In this document: piece by piece, positions 2,636 through 26,444 of the stretch
How positions within the stretch are numbered: position 1 is the first letter of the stretch
Layout of the letters: each line of letters starts with the position of its first letter
Assembly: GCA_001430755.1 (NCBI GenBank)
Contig: CP013062.1
Location: 1-32,000, forward strand
Source of the DNA: Candidatus Peribacter riflensis
GTDB lineage: Bacteria; Patescibacteriota; Gracilibacteria; Peribacterales; Peribacteraceae
Length of the DNA stretch: 32,000 bases
Reading direction: 5' to 3'
The notes under the pieces: generated by a model
Seen by the model: only the letters and a program-made list of their open reading frames with translations
Told to the model about the DNA's origin: nothing
Database searches by the model: none
Translations under genes and position numbers: made by a program

Positions 2636-4078
2636 CTACCTACAGGCACTCTCACACCAATAATCTTCTTGGGCAGAGGCATGGCACAAGAGGACATATG
2701 TGGTTATAGACACCGGAGAAACTGTAGTGCTGAATTTTCCGCGCTTGATGACACACTCTTGTTGTGCCTCATAAATGCACTCTCGCATCTGTGATATGGC
2801 ATCCTTACCAGCATCCATACAGCTTATGGCTGTCGATGATCCAGTGCAGGATCCCTGATAATTTTTTAGGCCAGAGCATTGCCCTGAAGTGTCACTCCAT
2901 ATGCCGTCGCCATCACCACAGAGGCAGCATGAAGTCTGGGCAACTTTACCATTGGAGTCCTGGCATTTGACGGGAGTACTTTTGCCAGAACAAAACTTTC
3001 CTGATCGACAATTGTCGTACGTTTTTGTTTTGGCAGTTAGATTGTATGTGATGCGAGTCTGGCACTCTGGCCAATTGGATATTGTCTGATTGGCACTGAC
3101 AGTGACCTCTCCTCCAGAGCGGTGTATCCAACGCTGCAGCTCTGCGATCCTCTTGTCTGCCTCAGCTTCATCTGCGAATACGTTGCAGCCGACGTCTTCA
3201 AATGAGGCGCATTCGAATGCACAGGTGCGGATACAGACATCAACTTTTTTAATAAAATTCAAACATCCTTGTCCGTGTCCCATGCGGATTTGGGTGAGGC
3301 CGGTACAGGAATTGATTTTTGGTATTACTGACAATAAATCTTCTTCCGGTACTGTGAATGTGTTTTCCGTAGAACATTGGGTCTGTCCTGCTTGCCAGCT
3401 ATTACAGAACCTTTTAAACATTGGATAACATACTTTTTGATCGGTGAGCCATTCACAATTTGGATCTGTATTACATGCTTTCCAATTATCAGCATAGGCG
3501 CCACACTCCGTGCTCTGTGCATAGAGGCAGAGACAACAATCTCGGCTCGATGAAGATGAAGATGGGGAAGAAGTGGACGGGGGAAGTGGTAGCGACTCCT
3601 CGCTTGTAGACGAAGATTCCTCAGAGCTCGATTGCGTTGCTGAACTCGACTCAGAAGACGATGACGACTCCCACCATGGAATAGATGAGGATGTATCACT
3701 CGATGAGCTCGTGGATTCCCAGTCCCACGGCGAGGTTGCGCTCGATTCCGAAGACGATGTCGTATCTTCCGATGAAGAAGACGGTTCTTGCCACTGGATA
3801 GGCAGCGTGTCACTCGATGACGATGATTCGACCGGCATCCACCATGGAATGGATGAGGATGTATCACTCGATGAGCTCGTGGATTCCCAGTCCCACGGCG
3901 AGGTTGCGCTCGCAGAAGAGAGATACGGTTCCGAGAATGCCGATGACGTTGACGAGGATGACGGATAGACGAAGTAAGGCAGTGCGAGTGCCGATACCGC
4001 AGGCAGATTTCCCGTTTGCAGTAATCCAATGAGGCTAACCGCAAACCCAAGGAGAACGAACCGTGTGAACCGCACCAT
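2636..4078 (-). CDS. secreted or surface protein with signal-anchor, Ser-rich Trp-containing repeats and a Cys-rich C-terminal domain (480 aa)
   Basis: Start taken at ATG 4078 (MVRFTRFVLLGFAVSLIGLL..AVSA hydrophobic N-terminus). There is a poly-Ser linker with a duplicated ATSPWDWESTSSSSDTSSSIPWW unit. The roughly 300-aa C-terminal part has more than 30 Cys, including two CCLC motifs. No family recognised. Confidence 0.7.
   Translation of the reverse strand: MVRFTRFVLLGFAVSLIGLLQTGNLPAVSALALPYFVYPSSSSTSSAFSEPYLSSASATSPWDWESTSSSSDTSSSIPWWMPVESSSSSDTLPIQWQEPSSSSEDTTSSSESSATSPWDWESTSSSSDTSSSIPWWESSSSSESSSATQSSSEESSSTSEESLPLPPSTSSPSSSSSSRDCCLCLYAQSTECGAYADNWKACNTDPNCEWLTDQKVCYPMFKRFCNSWQAGQTQCSTENTFTVPEEDLLSVIPKINSCTGLTQIRMGHGQGCLNFIKKVDVCIRTCAFECASFEDVGCNVFADEAEADKRIAELQRWIHRSGGEVTVSANQTISNWPECQTRITYNLTAKTKTYDNCRSGKFCSGKSTPVKCQDSNGKVAQTSCCLCGDGDGIWSDTSGQCSGLKNYQGSCTGSSTAISCMDAGKDAISQMRECIYEAQQECVIKRGKFSTTVSPVSITTYVLLCHASAQEDYWCESACR
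3671..3912. repeat. in-gene direct duplication, 168-bp period
   Basis: 3671-3744 and 3839-3912 are 73/74 identical (one A/G difference). They encode the duplicated SPWDWES...IPWW unit. Confidence 0.9.
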
Positions 4079-7747: not shown

Positions 7748-7783
7748 TAACCCTAACCCTAACCCTAACCCTAACCCTAACCC
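7748..7783 (+). repeat. (TAACCC)x6 perfect hexamer array (complement GGGTTA, telomere-type unit)
   Basis: Six perfect tandem copies fill the rplB-rpsS spacer and end 1 nt before the rpsS ATG. Confidence 0.98.
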
Positions 7784-7784
7784 T

Positions 7785-8129
7785 ATGTCCCGCTCCCTCA
7801 GCAAAGGCCCCTACGTCGATCCGCGCCTTCTCAAAAAGGTGATGGCGATGGTGGGCGCCGGCGAAAAGAAGATCATCAAGACGTGGGCCCGGGATTGCGA
7901 TATTCCGCCGGAGTTCGTGGGATTCACGTTCGCGGTGCACAACGGCAAGGAATTCACGCCCGTGTACGTCACGGAGCAGATGGTGGGGCACAAGCTCGGC
8001 GAATTCTCCTGGACGACGAAGTTCAAGATCCACGGCGGCAAGATGCAAGAGGCACAGACCGCCGCCGCTTCTGCCGCCGCCGCACCGGCCCCTGCTGCTC
8101 CCGCAGCCGGTAAACCCGCTTCCAAATAA
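7785..8129 (+). CDS. rpsS: 30S ribosomal protein S19 (Ala/Pro-rich C-terminal tail)
   Basis: The [12 protein letters not shown] start at ATG 7785 matches uS19. The upstream part of the tracked ORF only translates the hexamer repeat. Confidence 0.93.
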
Positions 8130-8132
8130 CCC

Positions 8133-8630
8133 ATGAGAGCCTACCTCCGCTCCGCACGCATCGCGCCCAAGAAACTAAGCGTCATCGCCCAGATGGTCCG
8201 TGGTCTCACAGTGCCCGAGGCGCAGGAATCTCTGGAGCATACGCACAAGAAGGGTGCGCGCATGATTCTCGCCTTGCTGAAGTCCGCTACCGCGAATGCA
8301 GTACACAACGACAAGCAGCGTCCCGAGGATCTCGTGATCCGCACCATCGTGGTGAACCAGGCGCAGAGCTATCGCCGCGGTGTGCCGATGGCGCGCGGAC
8401 GCATGCGCCCCATCCGAAAGTTCTTGAGCCACATCGAGATCGTCTTAGGAGTTGCCGATGCGGAAGGTGAAGGGGAGAAGATTAAAAGGAAAGAAAAAAG
8501 GAAGAGGAACCAAAAGAATGGCGCAAAAACTTCACAGGAGCAGAAAAAAGCTGTACAAGGAGACGCTCCTTCAAAAAAGAAGACGACAAAGCATGCTGCC
8601 TCCGATTCCAACACCTCAAAAAGCGTGTAA
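8133..8630 (+). CDS. rplV: 50S ribosomal protein L22 (about 55-aa basic C-terminal tail)
   Basis: uL22 core followed by the tail EGEGEKIKRKEKRKRNQKNG... Confidence 0.93.
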   Translation: MRAYLRSARIAPKKLSVIAQMVRGLTVPEAQESLEHTHKKGARMILALLKSATANAVHNDKQRPEDLVIRTIVVNQAQSYRRGVPMARGRMRPIRKFLSHIEIVLGVADAEGEGEKIKRKEKRKRNQKNGAKTSQEQKKAVQGDAPSKKKTTKHAASDSNTSKSV

Positions 8631-8673
8631 TCCTTTCATTCCTTTATTTCCCTTCATTCTTTTGTTTCCTTCC
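8631..8673 (+). repeat. pyrimidine-rich leader module (copy of 909-943 minus)
   Basis: TCCTTTCATTCCTTTATTTC[CCTTCATTC]TTTTGTTTCCTTCC, directly upstream of rpsC. Confidence 0.8.
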
Positions 8674-8678
8674 ATTGC

Positions 8679-9776: not shown

Positions 9777-10097
9777 ATGACGAAGACCACGACTGCCGGC
9801 GAGCTCCGCGCGATGCAACTCCCTGATCTCTCGCGAGAGATCAAGGCACAGGTGCTGCTCATCGAGCAGTTGCGCCTCGGCGTGCAACTGAAGAAGGAGA
9901 AAGACACGGCCAAGCTCCGCCGGGAGCGCCGACAGCTTGCGCGCATGAAAACGGAGTGGGCAAGAAAGACCACAGCTCAATTGCAGGGCGTCACAAAGCC
10001 CAGTACAGTTCCCACCTCCGCCAAGGCTTCCGCCTCCGCCCTTCGGGCTACGGCGGACAAGACGGCGGACAGGTCCGCCTCCCAAGCACGCTCATGA
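9777..10097 (+). CDS. rpmC: 50S ribosomal protein L29 (about 40-aa C-terminal tail)
   Basis: uL29 core (ELRAMQLPDLSREI...LR) followed by an Ala/Ser/Thr-rich tail. Stop overlaps the rpsQ start (ATGA). Confidence 0.88.
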   Translation: MTKTTTAGELRAMQLPDLSREIKAQVLLIEQLRLGVQLKKEKDTAKLRRERRQLARMKTEWARKTTAQLQGVTKPSTVPTSAKASASALRATADKTADRSASQARS

Positions 10098-13513: not shown

Positions 13514-13546
13514 TTTCTACCCCCTATTCCTCCTCCTCACCCAAGA

Positions 13547-14164
13547 ATGGCCAAATCCTCCCGCCCCGACCGCAAGAAAGGCGACCGCCGCCCCCGCACT
13601 CCCAGTGAGTTCGATGAGGTGACGTTGTCAGTGGATCGTGTGACGCGCGTGGTGGCCGGAGGCCGCCGCATGCGTTTCCGTGCCATCGTGGTGGTGGGCA
13701 ACAAGAAGGGCAAGGTGGGCCTGGGCACCGGCAAGGCTGCCGAGGTGCAGGCGGCGGTGAAGAAGGCCGTCGTGGCCGCCAAGCGCCACATGATCCGGAT
13801 TCCCCTGTATGAAGGATCCATTCCCCATGCAGTGAACGTGAAGTTCAAGGCGGCGAAGATCCGTCTCCTGCCGGCCTCCAAGGGAACGGGCATCATCGCC
13901 GGCGGCGCCGTGCGTGTCATCATGGAACAGGTGGGCGTGCAGGATGTGCTCAGCAAGCGCTTCGGGAGCTCCAATAAGCTCGTGAACGCTCAGGCGGTGA
14001 TGAAAGCGCTCGGAAAACTCAAGTGGAAGGGCGGCATGCCTTCCGAAGACGCACCCGAAAAGAAACCGCTCAAGGAAACCGAAGGTGCCCGGCAGGATGC
14101 CGAGGCGCTGGAGGGGGAGCGGCTGGGGATCACGGAAGTGAGCAAGAAGGACGTCATTCAGTAG
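13547..14164 (+). CDS. rpsE: 30S ribosomal protein S5 (C-terminal tail)
   Basis: uS5 core (VVAGGRRMRFRAIVVVGN). The stop TAG (14162-14164) is the first triplet of the downstream hairpin element. Confidence 0.94.
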   Translation: MAKSSRPDRKKGDRRPRTPSEFDEVTLSVDRVTRVVAGGRRMRFRAIVVVGNKKGKVGLGTGKAAEVQAAVKKAVVAAKRHMIRIPLYEGSIPHAVNVKFKAAKIRLLPASKGTGIIAGGAVRVIMEQVGVQDVLSKRFGSSNKLVNAQAVMKALGKLKWKGGMPSEDAPEKKPLKETEGARQDAEALEGERLGITEVSKKDVIQ

Positions 14165-14281
14165 GGAATGGGGAATCGGGATTTGGACTGAGGATTATTT
14201 CAGAGCTGATTTGAGGGAGTTTCTGTCTACATTCTGCTCTGTGGGTCTTTTCCGAAGTCCGATTCCCTATTCCCGAATCCC
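14162..14281 (+). repeat. GGGAAT/ATTCCC stem-loop element, copy 1
   Basis: 14164-14180 (GGGAATGGGGAATCGGG) pairs with 14258-14274 (TCCGATTCCCTATTCCC): 15 WC plus 2 GU with no mismatch. It is homologous to 24475-24605 and 26316-26411. Confidence 0.85.
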
Positions 14282-14294
14282 GTATACTGGTGAT

Positions 14295-14819
14295 ATGCCT
14301 AAAAAAGCTCTCCTCATCATCGCGCAGAAGGACTATCAGGACCGTGAGTACGAGCGCACGCGCGCCGAACTTGAACGTGGGGGTCTGGAGGTCACCGTTG
14401 CGAGTGGCGAAGGGGGTACGTGTACCGGAAAATTCGGGGGATCCGTCTTGAACACGATTGCGCTTGCACAGGTGAAGATCGCGGATTTCGATTGCATCAT
14501 CTTCATCGGCGGGCCCGGTGCAGAGGCCTACGTGCGTCATCCGGAGGCGCTCCGGCTCGCGCACGAGGCTGTGGCTGCTTCTCTGCCGCTCGGAGCCCTC
14601 TGCATCGCTCCGTTGATCCTGGCGAAGGCCAGAGTGCTCGAAGGCAGGCAGGCGACGGTGTGGGATGACGGCCGGGGCACCCAGGCGGCAATTCTGAAAC
14701 AGGCCGGGGCCGTATACACCGGTGATTCCGTTACGAGAGATGGAATGATCGTCACGGGCAACGGGCCGGAAGCGTCGGAGGAGTTCGGACGGACGCTCGT
14801 AGAGCTGACGAGGACGTGA
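14295..14819 (+). CDS. DJ-1/PfpI family protein
   Basis: Class I glutamine amidotransferase-like fold pattern with a nucleophile elbow (GALCIAP). ATG at 14295 gives MPKKALLIIAQ. Confidence 0.8.
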   Translation: MPKKALLIIAQKDYQDREYERTRAELERGGLEVTVASGEGGTCTGKFGGSVLNTIALAQVKIADFDCIIFIGGPGAEAYVRHPEALRLAHEAVAASLPLGALCIAPLILAKARVLEGRQATVWDDGRGTQAAILKQAGAVYTGDSVTRDGMIVTGNGPEASEEFGRTLVELTRT

Positions 14820-14833
14820 GGGCGAGTAGTTTC

Positions 14834-14985
14834 CTGCCTCACCCCCTAGCCCCCTCTCCATCCCTGCCACGATTCCTTCATGGAGAGGGGGAACACGTAC
14901 TCTTTTTGAAAAGTGCTCATAAACAGAAAGGGTGCGCCCCTCTCCCGTTGGCGTTGGGTGGGTGGGGAGAGTGGGGGTGAGGCAG
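14834..14985. repeat. nested inverted repeat between convergent genes (possible bidirectional terminator) containing a G4 motif
   Basis: The outer pair of 13 perfect bp is 14834-14846 with 14973-14985. The inner pair of 9 perfect bp is 14882-14890 with 14937-14945. GGGTGGGTGGGGAGAGTGGGGG lies at 14956-14977. Confidence 0.75.
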
Positions 14986-14994
14986 ATCCCCGGC

Positions 14995-16122
14995 TCACTC
15001 CAAACTCAGTGATCCAAAGGTCTGCACCCAGACGTCGCCGAAGACACCGATGCCTGTTTCGCGGAAGAGCGGCTGCAGAATCGTCTGGCGGTGCGATGTG
15101 GAGGCCATCCACTGCTTCACGGCAATGGATGCGGTCTGCTGGCCGCGCGCAATATTCTCGCCGAGCGCGAAGCGCGGAGAGCAGTTGCACACAGGAGTGC
15201 GCTTGGTGATGAAATAGTGCTGGGCAGTTTCAGAGCGCTGAGAGAGCAGGCTGCTCAAATCAAAGATCGCCTGACAGGGGCATAACTCCGGCGGGAGGGT
15301 GAGGTACCCCGTATTCCGGATACGGTCGACGTAACTGGCGCCCTCAGGTGTGAAGTGGCCGAAGTATCCCCGCTGGTACATGTCCTTGGCATGCTCCTGG
15401 GCCGCCTGTTCGAGGCGTGGGCTGCGGATGAGAGGCAACAGTTCTGCGGTGGCGCGTTCATGATTGATGAAGGAGATGATCTGGAGCTTTCTCTGCTCCT
15501 TGGTGCTGGGAATCGGCAGGAGGGCGCGGGTGAGGAGCTGGGTGCCGGGCGGTGGGGAAGCGACGGAAGAAGTGCGGATGATCCGGGGGAAAAGGCCGAC
15601 GGGGGTTGTGGTGCGCGGACGCAGGGAAGGGGCGCACAGGAAGAGTGCATACACGGCCTGTGCGGCCTCTCCCAGTGTCATGGATTGTTCCGGATGCAGG
15701 AGTGTTTTCTTTTCCAGGGCAAAGAGGCGGCACTGCTCGACATAACCCGCGAAGGGGGCGTACGGAGCACCTGATGGAATGTCGGTGAAATGGTGTTCCG
15801 GTCCTGCCGGGAGCCTGAAGAACATGACGAGCATCCAGAGGTATTCCCCGCGTGACACGGGCGAATCGGGGCCGATCATTTTGGTCGTAGCATCCACGCG
15901 CAACATTCCGCGCTCCACGGCAGCCGACAGTGCCTTCTCCTGCCAGGAGCCCGTCGGAACATCCACGAAGACCGGACGGGGTCCTGTGGGGTCGGGGATG
16001 GTTTGGCCGCTGGATTGAAAGAGAAAGCGCACAGCCTCCGCCCGTGTGACGAGGGGGGCCTGTGCCTGCGCCGTAGTTGCGAGGGTGCAGAGCGAGAGAA
16101 TGAAGGCGAGAGATCGACGCAT
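14995..16122 (-). CDS. secreted protein with SLH-like repeats and a CAP/SCP (YkwD-like) domain
   Basis: Signal peptide from ATG 16122 (MRRSLAFILSLCTLATTAQAQA). SLH-like motifs (FVDVPTGSWQEKA, FTDIPSG). C-terminal CAP pattern (HAKDM...GYFGH...GENIA...W..S..H..). Confidence 0.7.
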   Translation of the reverse strand: MRRSLAFILSLCTLATTAQAQAPLVTRAEAVRFLFQSSGQTIPDPTGPRPVFVDVPTGSWQEKALSAAVERGMLRVDATTKMIGPDSPVSRGEYLWMLVMFFRLPAGPEHHFTDIPSGAPYAPFAGYVEQCRLFALEKKTLLHPEQSMTLGEAAQAVYALFLCAPSLRPRTTTPVGLFPRIIRTSSVASPPPGTQLLTRALLPIPSTKEQRKLQIISFINHERATAELLPLIRSPRLEQAAQEHAKDMYQRGYFGHFTPEGASYVDRIRNTGYLTLPPELCPCQAIFDLSSLLSQRSETAQHYFITKRTPVCNCSPRFALGENIARGQQTASIAVKQWMASTSHRQTILQPLFRETGIGVFGDVWVQTFGSLSLE

Positions 16123-16263
16123 CGGGCGCTTTGTACCACAGAGAGGGCCATACTCCGCTTGCACTCGCACGGGAAAATGCGCAGAAAACGCGTGTTCCTC
16201 CCTTTACCTTCGGCGGCCGACCCACTACGATGCCCCCCCGTATCCCTACGCAAGGGAAGCGAT

Positions 16264-18010: not shown

Positions 18011-18017
18011 GACGATG

Positions 18018-18434
18018 TCAGGTAGGTAAAGTAGGTAAGGTAAGTACGGTAGGGGAACATTTCTGATGCAGTGAGTTCGTTAATTGATGCAGTAGGTACG
18101 AGGTGCGATTTACGTGTGCAAGGAGCTCCTGATATTGCTCTGATGTTAGGTAAAGAAGATCGAGAGAAAGCTCTAGGAAATTATCAACTTCCGCGGCTGA
18201 TGCATATGCTCGTTCGTAATAAATACGTCGATGAGCTGACGAACTCATCCTTGAGCCTTCTGCAATCTGGGCGCCAATTGATGATGATGATGCTCTTCTG
18301 AGCTGGCTTGTCAGACCGAAGCGTTCATGCGATGGGAACGAGGTAGTGACTTTGTATAGAAGAATTGTCAGAGCGTGAGCCTCTTGCCAGACAATGAGCT
18401 TTCTGAATCCTTCTTGAAAGCGTTGGTAGGCCAT
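18018..18434 (-). CDS. four-helix-bundle protein (23S rRNA intervening-sequence protein family, TIGR02436/PF05635-like)
   Basis: Family hallmarks: LIVWQEAHAL, FPSHERFGLTSQLRRAS and AQIAEG. ATG at 18434 gives MAYQRF. The last ~10 codons (TVLTLPTLPT) are read from the repeat arm. Two hand-counted lines are about 42-45% G+C. Confidence 0.88.
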   Translation of the reverse strand: MAYQRFQEGFRKLIVWQEAHALTILLYKVTTSFPSHERFGLTSQLRRASSSSIGAQIAEGSRMSSSAHRRIYYERAYASAAEVDNFLELSLDLLYLTSEQYQELLAHVNRTSYLLHQLTNSLHQKCSPTVLTLPTLPT

Positions 18435-18535
18435 GTGTACGAACGTACACCTCACATACCGTGACGTCAATCATTTGCGCAAATTGCCTACCTTACCTAC
18501 CTTACCTTCAATACTTTCCTTACTACCTTACCTTC
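18021..18535. repeat. inverted (GGTAAG/GGTAGG)n and (CTTACC/CCTACC)n arms enclosing the four-helix-bundle gene
   Basis: 18024-18046 pairs with 18485-18507: 20 WC plus 1 GU out of 23 positions, including 12 consecutive perfect bp (18031-18042 with 18489-18500). Confidence 0.85.
18442..18470 (-). promoter_or_regulatory. candidate promoter of the four-helix-bundle gene (near-leaderless)
   Basis: The minus strand reads TTGACG (18470-18465), a 17-nt spacer, then TACGTT (18447-18442), only 7 nt before ATG 18434. It is embedded among three palindromes. Confidence 0.3.
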
Positions 18536-18537
18536 GC

Positions 18538-19098
18538 ATGGACCTCGTTCTCTTCGGTATCCAAGGCAGTGGCAAAGGCACGCAAGCCAAGCGTCTCTGC
18601 GCGGAGTTCGATTTTGAAATGTTCGAGGCTGGTGGAGAACTGCGCAAGATCGCAGCGGGCGGTTCAAAGCTTGGTGCAACGGTGAAGTCCTACATTGATG
18701 TCGGAAAGCTGGTACCGTTCGAGATCATCATGCAGGTGGTCAAAGAGGCGATTCTCGCGCGCCCGAAGTCGCAGAAGATTCTCTTCGACGGCATTCCGCG
18801 GGATCAGGATCAAATGACGGCATTCGACGCGATTATGGCCGAAGCGGGCAGAGATTTTCGCTGCATCGAGATAGAGCTGAGCGAGGAGGAGGGAGTGCAG
18901 CGCATCCTGGGCAGGGCCCAAGTCGAAGGCCGCAAAGACGATGCCGACGAAACAATCATCCGCCGCCGCATGAAGACGTTCTTCGAGAAGACGAAGCCCG
19001 TGATCGAGCGCTACAAAGCCGCAGGAAAACTGACGGAGGTGGATGGGCGGGGGACGGTGGAGGAGGTGTACGAAGCGATGAGGAAACTTATTAGCTGA
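18538..19098 (+). CDS. adk: adenylate kinase (short form, no zinc lid)
   Basis: ATG at 18538 gives MDLVLFGIQGSGKGTQ (P-loop). Confidence 0.93.
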   Translation: MDLVLFGIQGSGKGTQAKRLCAEFDFEMFEAGGELRKIAAGGSKLGATVKSYIDVGKLVPFEIIMQVVKEAILARPKSQKILFDGIPRDQDQMTAFDAIMAEAGRDFRCIEIELSEEEGVQRILGRAQVEGRKDDADETIIRRRMKTFFEKTKPVIERYKAAGKLTEVDGRGTVEEVYEAMRKLIS

Positions 19099-19099
19099 T

Positions 19100-19218
19100 T
19101 GGCTTGTTGGCTTGTTCGTAGCCAAAACATACCTTTTCGATCATGCACTGAACTCAATCTCAGCAACCGAATAAGCTAACAACCTAACCACCTAACCACC
19201 CAACAACCTAACAAGCTA
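19100..19218 (+). repeat. TTGGCTTG / AACCTAAC-type stem-loop between adk and map
   Basis: 19100-19118 pairs with 19200-19218: 15 WC plus 2 GU plus 2 mismatches. It starts 2 nt after the adk TGA and ends 12 nt before the map ATG. Confidence 0.65.
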
Positions 19219-19230
19219 TACTTCCCTTCG

Positions 19231-20393: not shown

Positions 20394-20414
20394 AGATTCC
20401 CTCATCTCTCTCCC

Positions 20415-22135: not shown

Positions 22136-22193
22136 TCCGTTTTCTCTCTCGTCCCGCACTGTGCGGGCCACCCATTTCCTTCCTCTCTGTCCC

Positions 22194-24068: not shown

Positions 24069-24479
24069 ATGCAACCCACAGAGAAGAAACGGCAGTACCT
24101 GAGCGGCGTCGGCAAGCGCAAGACCGCCATTGCCCGCGTGAAGGTTTTTGAGGGCGGGTCCGGCGAGGCGATCGTGAACGGTCTCAAGATCAGAGAGTAC
24201 TTCGATACGGCATTCCAGACAGAGAACGCTCTGTCGCCCCTCGTCCTCGCGAACCTCAAAGGGCGCATCGATGTCGAGGCGATCACGCGTGGCGGAGGCA
24301 AGGAAGCACAGTCCGATGCCGTGCGGCACGGCCTGAGCCGCGCTCTCTTGCTCGTCAGCCCCGAATTGCGCGGTGACCTCAAGCGTGCCGGCTACCTGCG
24401 CCGCGATGCACGCATCAAGGAGCGCAAGAAGCCGGGCCTCAAGCGCGCCCGCCGTGCGCCGCAGTGGCAGAAACGATAG
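24069..24479 (+). CDS. rpsI: 30S ribosomal protein S9
   Basis: GVGKRKTAIARV and the C-terminal RRAPQWQKR. The stop TAG (24477-24479) lies inside the hairpin element. Confidence 0.95.
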   Translation: MQPTEKKRQYLSGVGKRKTAIARVKVFEGGSGEAIVNGLKIREYFDTAFQTENALSPLVLANLKGRIDVEAITRGGGKEAQSDAVRHGLSRALLLVSPELRGDLKRAGYLRRDARIKERKKPGLKRARRAPQWQKR

Positions 24480-24605
24480 GGAATAGGGAAGGGATTCGGA
24501 CGTAGGAGTTTTACTGAGGATCTTGTTGAACGAAGAAGCCCGTTCCTGCTTTTCTGGCTCTTCAAAGTACCCCTCTGTCCTATTCCCTATCCCCGAATCC
24601 CCACC
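24475..24605 (+). repeat. GGGAAT/ATTCCC stem-loop element, copy 2
   Basis: 24475-24487 (GATAGGGAATAGG) pairs with 24579-24591 (CCTATTCCCTATC): 13 perfect bp. There is also a second perfect 9-mer pair, 24491-24499 with 24593-24601. Confidence 0.85.
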
Positions 24606-24606
24606 T

Positions 24607-24963
24607 TCACGCGACTCCCAGCTTCACGTAGTACAGGCTCTTGCCATCCTCCGTATCGAGGATGAAGCGGGCGTCGAGTGTGAGCAGCTGCAGGATCGTC
24701 TGGCACATCTTGAGCAGCATCGCCGGTGGCAGCATCACTCCGGCCTCCAGACACGTCGCACACAGGCCTGCGGCGTCTTTGCAGCGCAGGTAGGGCTCTC
24801 CGCGATCCTGGATGACCTCCCGCAGCGAGTTCTGCACCTCCACGACGTAGCGTTCGATGTAGGGCTCCAGTTCCTCCACGGCCAGCTCCTGCACTTCAGG
24901 GATGGCCGCGATGATATCGAGGTCCGAATGGATTGCATGGGCGATGCAGGCATCGAGGGTCAT
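24607..24963 (-). CDS. hypothetical protein (118 aa, acidic)
   Basis: Complete ORF with a CCC-ATG start context and its own candidate promoter. No family recognised. Confidence 0.5.
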   Translation of the reverse strand: MTLDACIAHAIHSDLDIIAAIPEVQELAVEELEPYIERYVVEVQNSLREVIQDRGEPYLRCKDAAGLCATCLEAGVMLPPAMLLKMCQTILQLLTLDARFILDTEDGKSLYYVKLGVA

Positions 24964-25083: not shown

Positions 25084-25111
25084 TTGATTTGCGCGGCCCC
25101 GTTTGTATAGT
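25084..25111 (+). promoter_or_regulatory. candidate promoter of tRNA-Thr
   Basis: TTGATT (25084-25089), a 16-nt spacer, then TATAGT (25106-25111), 9 nt before the mature tRNA 5' end. Confidence 0.45.
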
Positions 25112-25196: not shown

Positions 25197-25238
25197 CTCT
25201 TCTCCGGCGCAGGGCTTTTGTGTATGCTTGCGTGCCCT

Positions 25239-26318
25239 ATGGATCGCCCTACCGCCCTCATCTGGTCCTGGCTCAATGTACTCAACGCAAAGCGTCTTGC
25301 GGCGCTGCTGCAGGTCTACGGAGACATGACCAAGGCGCTCCAGCACATTGATGAGCCCCTTTTGCAGGAGCTGGGCTGCCGGGGGGACACCGTGTTTGCC
25401 GTTCTCAACCGCCTTGAGGAGTGCGATCCGGCAGTCTATGAGCAGGAGCTCAAGAAGCGCAGGCTCTCGTTCCTCACCATCGATGATTCCGAGTATCCGC
25501 GTCACCTGAAAGAGATCGCCGATCCCCCTGTCTTTCTCTACTGGCGCGGCGACCTCACGATTCTGGATCAGCCCTGCATCGCACTCGTGGGCACGCGCGC
25601 AATGAGCGACTACGGCAGGCGTGTGGCAGAGAGTTTCGTGCCGGAGCTGGTACGGGCAGGCCTCGTGACCGTGAGTGGGCTCGCGCTCGGCATCGATGCG
25701 ACGGTTGCACGCGAAACCATCGCGGCGGGCGGCAGGACGGTGGCCGTCCTCGGGCATGGCCTCGGAAAGATCTACCCCAGAGAGAACGCGCGGCTTGCCG
25801 AAGAGATTGTCGAAGCAGGAGGTCTCTACCTCTCAGAGTTCCCGCTGGATGCAGAGCCCGGCAAGTACACCTTTCCCGCCCGCAATCGCATCATTGCCGG
25901 CCTCTCGCTGGGTACGGTCGTTCTGGAGGCTCCGCACGGGAGCGGGGCGCTCATCACGGCGGATCTGGCGCTGGATTACGGCCGTGAGGTCTTCGTCGTG
26001 CCCGGGCCGATTTTCGATCCCAATTACGCCGGCTGCCACCAGATGCTGGGCAAGGGACACGCCAAACTGGTGAGCTCTGCCGCCGATATTCTCCTGGAGC
26101 TGGGGGTGGTTGCCTCCGAAGCCGCCCAGTCATCCTACGATCCGAAGAGTGCGGCCGAAGCAGCCCTGCTCAACGTGCTCACGACAATGCCGCAGACATC
26201 CGATGATCTCATGGAGCGCTCTGGGCTCCCCGCAGGGCAGATCGCCTCCGCTCTCACGATGATGGAGCTTTCTGGGGCGGCGAAGCAGGTGGGCCACGGG
26301 CAGTGGGTGCGGAGGTAG
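25239..26318 (+). CDS. dprA: DNA processing protein DprA/Smf
   Basis: Rossmann-like DprA core (GLALGIDA...VLGHGL..IYP..N..L...I...GG..SEFP...P....FP.RNRIIAGL). Start is ambiguous: ATG 25239 (preceded by CCCT), ATG 25224 or TTG 25218. The stop TAG begins hairpin copy 3. Confidence 0.88.
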   Translation: MDRPTALIWSWLNVLNAKRLAALLQVYGDMTKALQHIDEPLLQELGCRGDTVFAVLNRLEECDPAVYEQELKKRRLSFLTIDDSEYPRHLKEIADPPVFLYWRGDLTILDQPCIALVGTRAMSDYGRRVAESFVPELVRAGLVTVSGLALGIDATVARETIAAGGRTVAVLGHGLGKIYPRENARLAEEIVEAGGLYLSEFPLDAEPGKYTFPARNRIIAGLSLGTVVLEAPHGSGALITADLALDYGREVFVVPGPIFDPNYAGCHQMLGKGHAKLVSSAADILLELGVVASEAAQSSYDPKSAAEAALLNVLTTMPQTSDDLMERSGLPAGQIASALTMMELSGAAKQVGHGQWVRR

Positions 26319-26411
26319 GGATTGGGGTATGGGAGAGACGGCAGAGGCTGCTATTTTTCAATTGACCGATAGGTAATCCCCATTCCCTCATATTCCAATC
26401 CCACATCCCTC
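26316..26411 (+). repeat. GGGATT/AATCCC stem-loop element, copy 3 (diverged)
   Basis: 26318-26337 pairs with 26383-26402: 15 WC plus 4 GU plus 1 mismatch over 20 positions. The left end is TAGGGATTGGGG. Confidence 0.7.
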
Positions 26412-26444
26412 CGTGTACACTCGCCTACAATTTCCCCCCTTTTC

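What the first reader, a model, noticed from the sequence alone, without database searches (positions are those of the whole stretch)
14162..14281. Family of stem-loop elements that begin on the stop codon TAG (after rpsE, rpsI and dprA)
Seen: three elements (14162-14281, 24475-24605, 26316-26411) start with the upstream gene's stop codon embedded in a conserved left end, TAGGGAAT / TAGGGAAT / TAGGGATT. The left end is built of GGGAAT/GGGATT units. Each element ends in the complementary (G/T)ATTCCC and GAATCCC units. The right arms of copies 1 and 2 are 23/25 identical (GTCCGATTCCCTATTCCCGAATCCC versus GTCCTATTCCCTATCCCCGAATCCC). Both interiors share ACTGAGGAT. Copy 1 folds as 14164-14180 with 14258-14274 (15 WC plus 2 GU, no mismatch) around a 77-nt interior with its own CAGAGC/GCTCTG pair. 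Fragments of the C-rich arm also occur alone upstream of rpsE (CCCTATTCC, about 13522-13530) and rpmJ (ATTCCCTCAT at 20397-20406, identical to 26382-26391). Inference: this is a dispersed structured element (REP/MITE-like DNA, or an RNA processing, stabilising or coupling signal) that I cannot assign to any described family. The left arms also carry three GGG runs, so an RNA G-quadruplex is an alternative fold.
Basis: partly seen in the sequence, partly recalled or inferred. Interest (0 to 1): 0.7.

Follow-up and report, generated by a model that had tools for sequence, protein, structure and literature searches.

The report
Heptamer-repeat hairpins after stop codons
Three intergenic hairpins in a Candidatus Peribacter riflensis ribosomal-protein region are inverted pairs of GGGAAT-type 7-base tandem repeats, a repeat class already described in Xanthomonas and cyanobacteria whose function is still unknown; they sit where the upstream gene's transcript should end.

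Summary
Three elements start on the TAG stop codons of rpsE, rpsI and dprA. Each has a G-rich GGGAWT-heptamer arm, a variable loop and a complementary C-rich arm. Copy 1 is a strong hairpin (-61.5 kcal/mol, z -4.8). Copies 2 and 3 fold weakly.

They match the GGGAATC-type heptameric simple-sequence repeats of Xanthomonas and Nostoc (Rehm et al. 2015). Those repeats often occur as convergent inverted pairs and lie next to, or overlap, stop codons.

In Peribacteraceae they are one flavour of a wider pattern. Many enlarged spacers carry a repeat hairpin with its own unit. At the same orthologous sites the unit differs between species while the architecture stays.

- The arms of copy 2 are more conserved than synonymous sites; its loop is at chance.
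- The G-rich arm comes first in nearly all cases.
- TAG stop codons are enriched at these hairpins.

Most likely role (inferred, not shown): a REP-like RNA hairpin marking the 3' end of the upstream cistron. A G-quadruplex or a MITE is unlikely. Verdict: a new member of a known kind, of moderate interest.

The parts
14162..14187 (+). Copy 1: rpsE stop codon TAG plus the G-rich left arm (GGGAATG GGGAATC GGGATTT GGA)
   Evidence: (I24)
14201..14251 (+). Copy 1 loop: inner stem CAGAGC...GCTCTG followed by TCTTTT (terminator-like; read by eye, as the loop is too long for the scanner)
14251..14281 (+). Copy 1 C-rich right arm (TCCGAAGTCC GATTCCC TATTCCC GAATCCC). A TATACT box follows at 14283-14288 and the DJ-1/PfpI ATG is at 14295
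24477..24501 (+). Copy 2: rpsI stop codon TAG plus the G-rich left arm (TAGGGAATAGGGAAGGGATTCGGAC)
24528..24555 (+). Copy 2 loop: small hairpin plus T-run (GAACGAAGAAGCCCGTTC CTGCTTTTCT), terminator-like
24577..24606 (+). Copy 2 C-rich right arm. It abuts the stop codon (24607-24609) of the convergent gene orf118, so on the - strand it reads as a G-rich arm directly after that stop
26316..26339 (+). Copy 3: dprA stop codon TAG plus a degenerate G-rich left arm (GGGATTG GGGTATG GGAGAGA)
26340..26362 (+). Copy 3 loop: small hairpin plus T-run (GGCAGAGGCTGCT ATTTTTCAAT), terminator-like
26373..26412 (+). Copy 3 C-rich right arm (TAATCCC CATTCCC TCATATTCC AATCCC ACATCCC TCC)
26413..26429 (+). Promoter-like GTGTACACTCGCCTACA, conserved in six Peribacteraceae genomes downstream of whichever hairpin occupies this spacer
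18017..18053 (+). Sister hairpin in the secY-adk spacer, left arm (unit GGTAGGTAA). It overlaps the 3' end of the IVP gene
   Evidence: (I1)
18487..18533 (+). Sister hairpin in the secY-adk spacer, right arm ((CCTACCTTA)n, free of G), ending 4 nt before the adk ATG
19091..19118 (+). Sister hairpin in the adk-map spacer, left arm (unit TTGGCTTG), overlapping the adk stop codon TGA
19164..19218 (+). Sister hairpin in the adk-map spacer, right arm ((CAACCTAA)n), ending in a TATACT box 9 nt before the map ATG
7748..7785 (+). Unpaired G-free array (TAACCC)6 that fills the rplB-rpsS spacer up to the ATG
8631..8676 (+). G-poor array (TCCTTTCAT)5 from the rplV stop to the rpsC ATG. It is partly complementary to the purine-rich 3' coding end of rplV (8460-8520)

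Best explanation
WHAT IT IS (well supported). Each element is an inverted ('convergent') pair of short tandem arrays of a 7-base unit. A G-rich (GGGAWTN)3 array starts on the stop codon of the upstream gene. A variable loop of 60-80 nt follows, then the complementary C-rich (NAWTCCC)3 array. This is the GGGAATC-type heptameric simple-sequence repeat (SSR) class described in Xanthomonas and Nostoc. Here it occurs in the Candidate Phyla Radiation (CPR) bacterium Ca. Peribacter riflensis. In Peribacteraceae it is one flavour of a general pattern. Spacers at sub-operon boundaries carry repeat hairpins whose unit differs from spacer to spacer and from species to species. The layout stays the same: the G-rich, C-poor arm lies at the stop codon and the C-rich, G-poor arm lies downstream.

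HOW IT WORKS (inferred, not shown). The arrays are transcribed with the upstream gene and the two arms pair in the RNA. This gives a long stem whose base is the stop codon. The stem acts like a REP/BIME element. It marks and protects the 3' end of the upstream cistron against 3'-to-5' decay. Together with the small hairpin plus U-run found in each of the three loops, it also damps read-through into the next transcription unit. Because the stem starts on the stop codon, a terminating ribosome must open its base. The arms are kept complementary by selection for pairing, by template switching or conversion between the two arrays, or by both. Slippage changes the unit number and the unit sequence.
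For: Anatomy.

Folding: copy 1 gives -61.5 kcal/mol, z -4.8. The orthologue of copy 2 in another species gives -57 kcal/mol, z -3.7.

Class identity:
- The published description gives the same unit, the same convergent pairs and the same position at or overlapping stop codons. It also reports transcripts starting or stopping at the repeats more often than in controls (PMC4692102).
- The same architecture appears in Xanthomonadales, Acidobacteria and Planctomycetes loci.

Position:
- In 14 of 17 Peribacteraceae SSR hairpins the left arm starts between -8 and +18 nt of the stop codon. The right arm ends 1-61 nt before the next start.
- At the dprA site the hairpin lies between the stop codon and a promoter-like box conserved in six genomes.
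- At the rpsI site, genomes without an SSR hairpin have an ordinary stop-adjacent hairpin plus a stem and T-run terminator (L219, L220).

Recurrence at orthologous sites with different units:
- rpsE-DJ1: hairpins in 3 of 5 genomes, 3 different units.
- rpsI: 3 of 6 genomes, 2 units.
- dprA: 5 of 6 genomes, 4 units.

Constraint: between two species the arms of copy 2 are 79-86% identical. Third codon positions of the flanking genes are 62-66% identical, and the loop is 49% identical, which is chance level.

Polarity: 13 of 13 co-directional and 4 of 5 convergent SSR hairpins are G-first. In other phyla the ratio is 16 G-first to 1 C-first.

Loops: loops 2 and 3 hold a scanner-detected hairpin plus T-run. 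Loop 1 holds one found by eye.
Against: - No expression data for this organism were available, so the RNA-level role is inference.
- Copies 2 and 3 fold no better than shuffled sequence on the + strand (z -1.1 and -1.6).
- The arms are only about 80% complementary.
- Mismatches show no excess of G-U over A-C on the sense strand (15 against 17). An RNA-specific constraint is therefore not demonstrated, and DNA-level concerted evolution could explain the conserved arms.
- The outer stems lack a 3' U-tract, so they are not canonical terminators.
- Terminator-like hits in the region are not more frequent than in shuffles (15 against 12.2).
- Some close relatives have no hairpin at the same site: L123 and L125 at rpsE, L218 at dprA, L222 at rpsI.
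- Rehm et al. could not find a regulatory role in Xanthomonas.
Confidence: 0.55

Rival explanations
1. Non-adaptive by-product. Heptamer arrays arise by replication slippage from the C-rich sequence that precedes start codons. An inverted copy arises by intramolecular template switching. The pair then persists because short spacers tolerate it. Polarity and stop-codon abutment only reflect which sequences are tolerated next to start and stop codons.
For: - The unit sequence and unit number turn over between close relatives, and some relatives lack the hairpin.
- Arm complementarity is only about 80%, with no wobble bias.
- Copies 2 and 3 fold weakly.
- Unpaired G-free arrays before start codons are the commoner form: 29 against 14 stop-adjacent arrays.
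- No regulatory role was found in Xanthomonas.
Against: - The arms of copy 2 are conserved above the synonymous rate while the loop is at chance.
- Hairpins recur at the same three sites with unrelated units.
- G-first polarity also holds between convergent genes, where no start codon constrains the sequence (4 of 5).
- G-first outnumbers C-first 16 to 1 in other phyla.
- In Xanthomonas the repeats sit much closer to the upstream stop (28 nt) than to the next ORF (160 nt).
Confidence: 0.25
2. Translational coupling or insulation device. The G-rich arm masks the G-poor leader of the next gene. The downstream cistron is then translated only when a ribosome terminating on the stop codon melts the stem, or only from the downstream gene's own promoter.
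For: - The lineage almost lacks Shine-Dalgarno sites (7% of starts) and has G-depleted leaders.
- Several right arms end 1-14 nt before the ATG: secY-adk, L126 rpmJ-rpsM, L124 rpsE-DJ1 and copy 1.
- The stem base coincides with the stop codon.
Against: - About half of the right arms end 30-61 nt before the start codon, which leaves the leader free.
- At dprA a conserved promoter-like box lies between the hairpin and the gene.
- Copy 2 and three other hairpins lie between convergent genes, with no downstream start codon.
Confidence: 0.12
3. MITE- or REPIN-like mobile element. The arms are terminal inverted repeats of a non-autonomous transposable element that has spread to three sites.
For: - The arms of copies 1 and 2 are near-identical, including the non-repeat inner bases GGAC/GTCC, and the loops share a 9-mer.
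- Presence or absence varies among relatives.
- The same unit families turn up at non-orthologous sites in different genomes.
- Loops can hold inserted genes: a four-helix-bundle protein gene here and a transposase remnant in L123.
Against: - There is no consistent target-site duplication. A GTA...GTA flank is seen at copy 1 only (read).
- The interiors are not homologous.
- The arms are degenerate tandem arrays rather than defined termini, and individual arms are not REP-like palindromes.
- Only 3 copies occur in about 48 kb, with none in the 16 kb of flanks.
- No RAYT or transposase was seen among the annotated genes of the sampled P. riflensis sequence.
- Copy 2 has persisted at its orthologous site across species.
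Confidence: 0.06
4. G-quadruplex element. The G-rich arm folds into an RNA or DNA G4 that stalls polymerase or ribosomes. The C-rich arm is incidental.
For: (GGGAATC)3GGG forms a K+-dependent G4 in vitro with a half-melting temperature of 50 C. Xanthomonas arrays also prefer four units.
Against: - The sense-strand arms of copies 1-3 have only three G3 runs each.
- A complementary arm 60-90 nt away offers a duplex worth -40 to -60 kcal/mol.
- Sister hairpins with identical layout use units without G runs: ATGTAAAAT, AGCTGTT, TTGGCTTG and GAGTATT.
Confidence: 0.03

Closest known systems
GGGAATC / (GGGANTN)n heptameric G-rich simple-sequence repeats of Xanthomonas, and GGGGA(C/T)T of Nostoc (Rehm et al. 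2015, PMC4692102)
   Same: - Same 7-nt period and the same GGGAAT core.
- Intergenic location.
- Frequent convergent inverted pairs able to form stem-loops.
[quoted passage not shown]
- C-rich strand just upstream of ORFs.
- Repeat length varies between relatives while the type (single or paired) is kept.
   Different: - Only three units per arm, where Xanthomonas prefers four.
- Copies 2 and 3 lack an exact GGGAATC unit.
- The host is a CPR bacterium with a 1.25-Mb genome that rarely uses Shine-Dalgarno sequences.
- In this clade the GGGAAT unit is one of many interchangeable units.
Cyanobacterial STRR short tandemly repeated heptamers (Mazel et al. 1990; from my own knowledge, not checked here)
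   Same: Heptamer tandem arrays in intergenic DNA of unknown function. Many cyanobacterial loci matched the pattern scan.
   Different: The published STRR units differ, and they are mostly described as single arrays. Rehm et al. found few inverted pairs in Nostoc.
REP/BIME elements and REPIN doublets (E. coli, Pseudomonas)
   Same: Works alike:
- Transcribed intergenic inverted repeats placed after stop codons or between convergent genes.
- They form stem-loops and are known to stabilise the upstream mRNA.
- From my own knowledge, when a REP lies within about 15 nt of a stop codon it interferes with the terminating ribosome.
   Different: Not a member:
- The arms are tandem simple repeats, not a defined imperfect palindrome of 20-35 nt with a GTAG head.
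- Copy number is low.
- No RAYT was seen.
- The sequence differs at every site.
Intrinsic (Rho-independent) terminators
   Same: The position directly after a stop codon and before the next promoter or a convergent gene. Relatives have ordinary terminators at the same site. The loops carry small hairpins plus T-runs.
   Different: The outer SSR stem has a 60-430-nt loop and no 3' U-tract.
MITEs
   Same: Short elements with inverted ends, and presence or absence varies among relatives.
   Different: No target-site duplication, no conserved interior, and the ends are degenerate tandem arrays.

Membership tests
GGGAATC-type heptameric G-rich SSR (Rehm et al. 2015) | Tandem array of at least 2 units and at least 14 bp of (GGGANTN)n, containing at least one exact GGGAATC | tested here: met
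   Copy 1 left arm reads GGGAATG GGGAATC GGGATTT, with an exact GGGAATC at 14171-14177. Copies 2 and 3 meet only the heterogeneous (GGGANTN)n form and have no exact GGGAATC on either strand.
GGGAATC-type heptameric G-rich SSR (Rehm et al. 2015) | [quoted passage not shown] | tested here: met
   All three left arms begin on the TAG stop codon. The - strand reading of copy 2 begins 0 nt after the orf118 stop codon.
GGGAATC-type heptameric G-rich SSR (Rehm et al. 2015) | Occurrence as convergent inverted pairs (one array on each strand, close together) | tested here: met
   The GGGAWT hits cluster on the + strand and then on the - strand at 14164-14183 / 14262-14281 and at 24479-24496 / 24582-24601. 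The cluster test gives 2 observed against 0 in 300 simulations.
GGGAATC-type heptameric G-rich SSR (Rehm et al. 2015) | Four or more G3 tracts, giving G-quadruplex capacity (the preferred form, 42-56% of arrays) | tested here: not met
   Each sense-strand arm has three G3+ runs. Only the - strand arm of copy 2 has four, and one of its loops is 11 nt.
GGGAATC-type heptameric G-rich SSR (Rehm et al. 2015) | Many copies dispersed over the genome (about 185 in Xanthomonas) | tested here: inconclusive
   There are 3 copies in about 48 kb sampled and none in the 16 kb flanking the window. The rest of the 1.25-Mb genome could not be read.
REP / REPIN | Each unit is a conserved imperfect palindrome of 20-35 nt with a GTAG head, present in many copies, with a RAYT transposase in the genome | tested here: not met
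   The arms are tandem heptamers with no internal palindrome. GTAG precedes copies 1 and 3 only, because the preceding codon ends in G. No RAYT was seen among the annotated genes of the sampled loci.
MITE | Terminal inverted repeats, a target-site duplication and a conserved interior among copies | tested here: not met
   There is no consistent flanking duplication (read). The interiors are unalignable, and the orthologous loops are 49% identical, which is chance.
Intrinsic terminator | GC-rich stem with a short loop, followed directly by a U-tract | tested here: not met
   The outer stems are followed by GTATACT, CACCTTCA and CGTGTAC, not by a T-run. Only the small inner hairpins are followed by T-runs.
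Any Rfam family | A covariance-model match | tested here: not met
   The gathering-threshold scan of the window found only a tRNA. E-value scans of the three sites found nothing credible.

The most novel reading that the evidence does not exclude
Peribacteraceae have lost the anti-Shine-Dalgarno core. In this reading, G-free tandem-repeat arrays serve as the ribosome landing sites. Their G-rich inverted partners, anchored on the preceding stop codon (even converting TAA to TAG), form evolvable hairpins. These hairpins set how much expression passes from one cistron to the next. Possible routes are termination-dependent unmasking or shunting across the stem, or hiding an otherwise exposed C-rich Rho-loading site. 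Slippage in unit number would then act as a heritable rheostat. This would give a function to the whole cross-phylum class of G-first heptamer-repeat hairpins.
Probability: 0.15. Interest if true: 0.7.

Novelty: new member of a known kind. Interest (0 to 1): 0.4.

Why it matters
Heptameric G-rich repeats next to stop codons were catalogued in 2015 without a function. This window extends the class to a CPR bacterium with a very small genome.

The clade offers a useful natural comparison. At the same three gene junctions, related species carry hairpins built from unrelated repeat units, ordinary terminator hairpins, or nothing.

Several regularities give concrete, testable constraints on any functional model:
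- The arms are conserved while the loops are at chance.
- The G-rich arm almost always comes first, here and in other phyla.
- The stop codon appears to be drawn into the array as TAG.
- The element is tied tightly to the stop codon and only loosely to the next start codon.

The practical value is modest. Such arrays are length-variable markers. They can also mislead gene callers: the four-helix-bundle protein gene inside one of the hairpins is absent from the public gene calls.

Tried and rejected
1. Genome-wide pattern scan with GGGAWTNGGGRWTNGGGAWT on genome contigs. It was useful for showing the class is widespread but useless for a census in this genome.

2. Metagenome scan with GGGAWTNGGACN{55,85}GTCCNAWTCCC. 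It returned 91 loci. Most are unrelated palindromes, one is a true orthologue of copy 2 (L182), and a few are SSR hairpins from other taxa.

3. Only four GGGAAT-type copies exist, two of them orthologous. Tandem-repeat arms also pair in several registers, so pair counts would be arbitrary.

4. Wobble test for RNA-level against DNA-level constraint. It gave 15 G-U against 17 A-C, which is inconclusive and depends on register.

5. Target-site duplication search by eye: negative.

6. Promoter and terminator consensus scan: totals are not above shuffles. Only the placement inside the three loops is suggestive.

7. Polymorphism among P. riflensis assemblies: L001 and L002 are identical to the window, so there is no information.

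8. A -35 box inside the right arms: no consistent match.

9. Rfam: nothing.

10. The Peribacter genome paper mentions no intergenic repeats or hairpins.
Full report
SOURCE AND GENES

The window is 59.1% G+C. It is identical to contigs of Candidatus Peribacter riflensis (Peregrinibacteria, Candidate Phyla Radiation, CPR). Its S5 protein is 100% identical to a protein named for that organism, found on a 1,248,181-bp contig.

The window holds the S10-spc-alpha ribosomal-protein cluster. Pfam confirms the following genes:
- rpsE at 13547-14164.
- A DJ-1/PfpI gene at 14295-14819.
- A CAP/SLH gene on the - strand at 14995-16170.
- rplO and secY.
- rpsI at 24069-24479.
- dprA at 25218-26318.

- Left ends: they read TAGGGAAT, TAGGGAAT and TAGGGATT.
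- Units: GGGAWT hexamers cluster on the + strand and then on the - strand at the three sites.
- Right arms: those of copies 1 and 2 are 23/25 identical. Both interiors hold ACTGAGGAT.
- Copy 1 fold: 14164-14180 pairs with 14258-14274 as 15 Watson-Crick plus 2 G-U pairs. The repeat finder extends the arms to 24 nt at 83% complementarity. RNAfold gives -61.5 kcal/mol and z = -4.8.
- Chance: a strict cluster test finds 2 such hairpins against none in 300 Markov simulations.
- Copy 2: it is weaker, z -1.1 on the + strand and -2.3 on the - strand.
- Copy 3: it is also weak, z -1.6, and its inverted-repeat score is matched by 16 of 200 shuffles.
- Interiors: they do not align.
- Rfam: no family matches.

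THE ELEMENTS ARE NOT ALONE IN THE WINDOW

Other spacers have the same layout with different repeat units.
- secY-adk: a (GGTAGGTAA)n arm at 18017-18053 faces a (CCTACCTTA)n arm at 18487-18533.
- adk-map: a (TTGGCTTG)n arm overlaps the stop codon and faces a (CAACCTAA)n arm. The inverted-repeat scores are beaten by 0 of 200 half-shuffles.
- Unpaired arrays: several spacers hold only a G-free array that runs up to the start codon. One example is (TAACCC)6 before rpsS.

In 269 Peribacteraceae gene starts, G falls to 6-11% at positions -13 to -10, against 28.5% for the sequences overall. SD-like tetramers occur in 7% of starts, and C-rich tetramers occur in 56%. This agrees with a published survey. 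It lists Ca. P. riflensis among organisms that lack the CCUCC anti-SD core and have about 7% SD-bearing mRNAs (PMC10783764).

A DESCRIBED CLASS EXISTS

Several of those loci show the same layout, (GGGATTN)n ... (NAATCCC)n.

Rehm et al. 2015 (PMC4692102) described GGGAATC / (GGGANTN)n repeats in Xanthomonas. Their findings:
- About 185 arrays per genome.
- 70-75 cases per genome of two repeat sites close together in convergent orientation, able to form stem-loops.
- 89-93% of arrays are intergenic.
- The mean distance is 28 nt to the upstream ORF and 160 nt to the next ORF.
- The C-rich strand lies just before ORFs.
- Repeat length varies between species while the single or paired type is kept.
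- Transcripts start or stop at the repeats more often than in controls.
- No function was established.

The three elements fit this class. The exceptions are that they have three rather than four units, and that only copy 1 has an exact GGGAATC.

COMPARISON WITH RELATIVES

I fetched the same region from seven other Peribacteraceae genomes (S5 81-88% identical, S9 74-82% identical).

rpsE-DJ1 spacer:
- P. riflensis has the GGGAAT hairpin.
- L124 has a hairpin of GAGTATT/GAATATT units (z 7.7).
- L126 has one of GGCGATTT units (z 5.1).
- L123 and L125 have none.

rpsI-orf118 spacer:
- P. riflensis and L221 (the same species as L182) have the GGGAAT hairpin.
- L218 has an AGCTGTT-unit hairpin.
- L219 and L220 have an ordinary stop-adjacent hairpin, with a compensatory C-G to U-A change between them. 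A stem plus T-run terminator follows it.
- L222 has none.

dprA-orf279 spacer:
- Five of six genomes have a repeat hairpin, built from four different units.
- In all six, the spacer ends with a conserved promoter-like GTGTACACTCGCCTACA and a C-rich leader.

The architecture therefore recurs at terminator-type positions while the sequence is replaced.

CONSTRAINT ON THE ARMS

Between P. riflensis and L221, the arms of copy 2 are 86% (left) and 79% (right) identical. Third codon positions of the flanking rpsI and orf118 genes are 62% and 66% identical. The loop is 49% identical after gapped alignment, which is chance level. The arms are therefore kept, either by selection or by concerted evolution. 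The loop is free to vary.

REGULARITIES

108 spacers of 60-700 nt were tested, and 23 have significant inverted repeats.

- Polarity: all 13 repeat hairpins between co-directional genes have a G>C 5' arm and a 3' arm in which C equals or exceeds G (C>G in 12 of 13). Four of five between convergent genes are also G-first. A G-first pair reads G-first on both strands. This is therefore a type of element, not an orientation relative to the gene. In the 120 loci from other phyla, G-first pairs outnumber C-first pairs 16 to 1.
- Stop and start distances: the left arm starts -8 to +18 nt from the stop codon in 14 of 17 hairpins. The right arm ends 1-61 nt before the next start codon. The element belongs to the upstream gene's 3' end.
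- Stop codon: TAG is the adjacent stop codon in 11 of 17 hairpins, against 52 of 269 stop codons overall. Within a given site, genomes with a hairpin mostly have TAG and genomes without one mostly have TAA. The stop codon looks like the first unit of the array, with its synonymous third base recruited. These counts are not corrected for phylogeny.
- Array positions: of 68 intergenic arrays of period 5-12, 29 end within 15 nt of a start codon, and 21 of those are completely G-free. Fourteen abut a stop codon, with 25% G and 10% C.

MECHANISM

Shown:
- The elements are inverted heptamer arrays.
- Copy 1 and several sister elements can form long stems.
- They lie at stop codons, upstream of promoter-like boxes or next to convergent genes.
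- Their arms are conserved and their loops are not.

Inferred: they act in the RNA as REP-like 3' stem-loops that delimit and protect the upstream cistron and damp read-through. The small hairpin plus U-run in each of the three loops may help (for copies 2 and 3; by eye for copy 1). A terminating ribosome has to open the stem base.

I put about 0.85 on the class assignment and about 0.35 on this mechanism.

Against an RNA-specific role:
- There is no excess of G-U over A-C mismatches (15 against 17).
- Copies 2 and 3 fold weakly.
- The outer stems have no 3' U-tract.
- Some relatives have no hairpin at the same site.

RIVALS

- Neutral by-product of slippage plus template switching. It explains the turnover and the imperfect pairing. 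It does not explain the arm conservation, the recurrence at the same sites, or the G-first rule between convergent genes.
- Translational masking of the next leader. It fits the hairpins whose right arm touches the ATG. It does not fit those followed by a promoter or by a convergent gene.
- A MITE or REPIN. It is disfavoured by the lack of target-site duplications, of conserved interiors and of a transposase, and by low copy number (3 in about 48 kb, none in 16 kb of flanks).
- A G-quadruplex. It is disfavoured because each arm has three G runs, a complementary arm is close by, and sister hairpins use units without G runs.

VERDICT

The finding is a real feature and a new member of a known kind. 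It is of moderate interest because the function of the class is unresolved, and this clade offers a clean comparative handle on it.

Noticed in passing
window 18018-18470 (- strand): This is a 150-aa ORF with a clear match to the 23S rRNA-intervening-sequence / four-helix-bundle protein family (PF05635 E 5e-29; TIGR02436 E 8e-25). It sits antisense inside the loop of the secY-adk repeat hairpin, and its last codons are encoded by the left arm. It is absent from the public gene calls for these contigs. The setting recalls rRNA intervening sequences, which are stem-loops that can carry this gene.
   Followed up: partly
whole window; e.g. 13514-13546, 20398-20414, 22168-22193: Start codons are preceded by G-depleted, C/T-rich sequence that abuts the ATG, with no Shine-Dalgarno motif. 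SD-like motifs occur in 19 of 269 starts across Peribacteraceae loci. This matches the published listing of P. riflensis as SD-scarce and lacking CCUCC. The use of G-free tandem arrays as leaders was not mentioned in the papers I consulted.
   Followed up: partly
window 7748-7785: A telomere-like (TAACCC)6 array with 0 G in 38 nt fills the rplB-rpsS spacer up to the ATG. Relatives have (TCCCTAA)n or (CACTTTC)n at the same place.
   Followed up: partly
window 14834-14985; L125 11068-11191; L222 16682-16745: This is a different hairpin family with the opposite polarity (C-rich arm first): CTGCCTCACCCCC...CCCCCTCTCC / GGAGAGGGGG...GGGGGTGAGGCAG. It folds at z -5.05. It lies between DJ-1 and the convergent CAP gene, with inner stems followed by T-runs on both strands. 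Similar sequence occurs at non-orthologous sites in two other genomes.
   Followed up: partly
window 26413-26429, 14283-14288, 19217-19222, 25106-25111: Promoter-like boxes lie very close to gene starts.
- GTGTACACTCGCCTACA before orf279 is conserved in six genomes.
- TATACT lies 6-9 nt before the ATG of DJ-1 and of map.
- TATAGT lies 9 nt before the tRNA.
These suggest short-leader or leaderless transcripts.
   Followed up: no
window 22153-22167 and the orthologous rpsD-rpoA spacers: A small hairpin about 18 nt after the rpsD stop codon is kept in five of the seven genomes compared, with different stem sequences (CCCGCAC..GTGCGGG, CCCGTAC..GTACGGG, CCCCGCA..TGCGGGG). A conserved leader CACCCAYTTCCTTCCTTCC follows it before rpoA. 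It is probably an intra-operon attenuator or processing site.
   Followed up: no
L123 16419-17639: In a relative, the loop of the adk-map repeat hairpin holds a 252-aa ORF on the - strand with weak integrase-core and HTH matches (rve E 9e-4). It looks like an insertion-sequence remnant. In L125 the DJ1-CAP hairpin loop holds a 64-aa ORF. Hairpin loops seem to be insertion sites.
   Followed up: partly
window 3671-3744 and 3839-3912: A 74-nt direct repeat, 99% identical and spaced 168 nt apart, lies inside the 480-aa gene of unknown function on the - strand (2636-4078).
   Followed up: no
window 9777-10097: The ORF in the uL29 position matches Ribosomal_L29 only weakly (E 0.025, below the Pfam cut-off). 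This may explain reports that some Peregrinibacteria lack uL29.
   Followed up: no
window 24607-24963 (- strand): orf118 has no family match in Pfam or NCBIfam. Even so, it is 96% identical at codon positions 1 and 2 between two species whose S9 proteins are 79% identical. It is a strongly constrained unknown protein.
   Followed up: no
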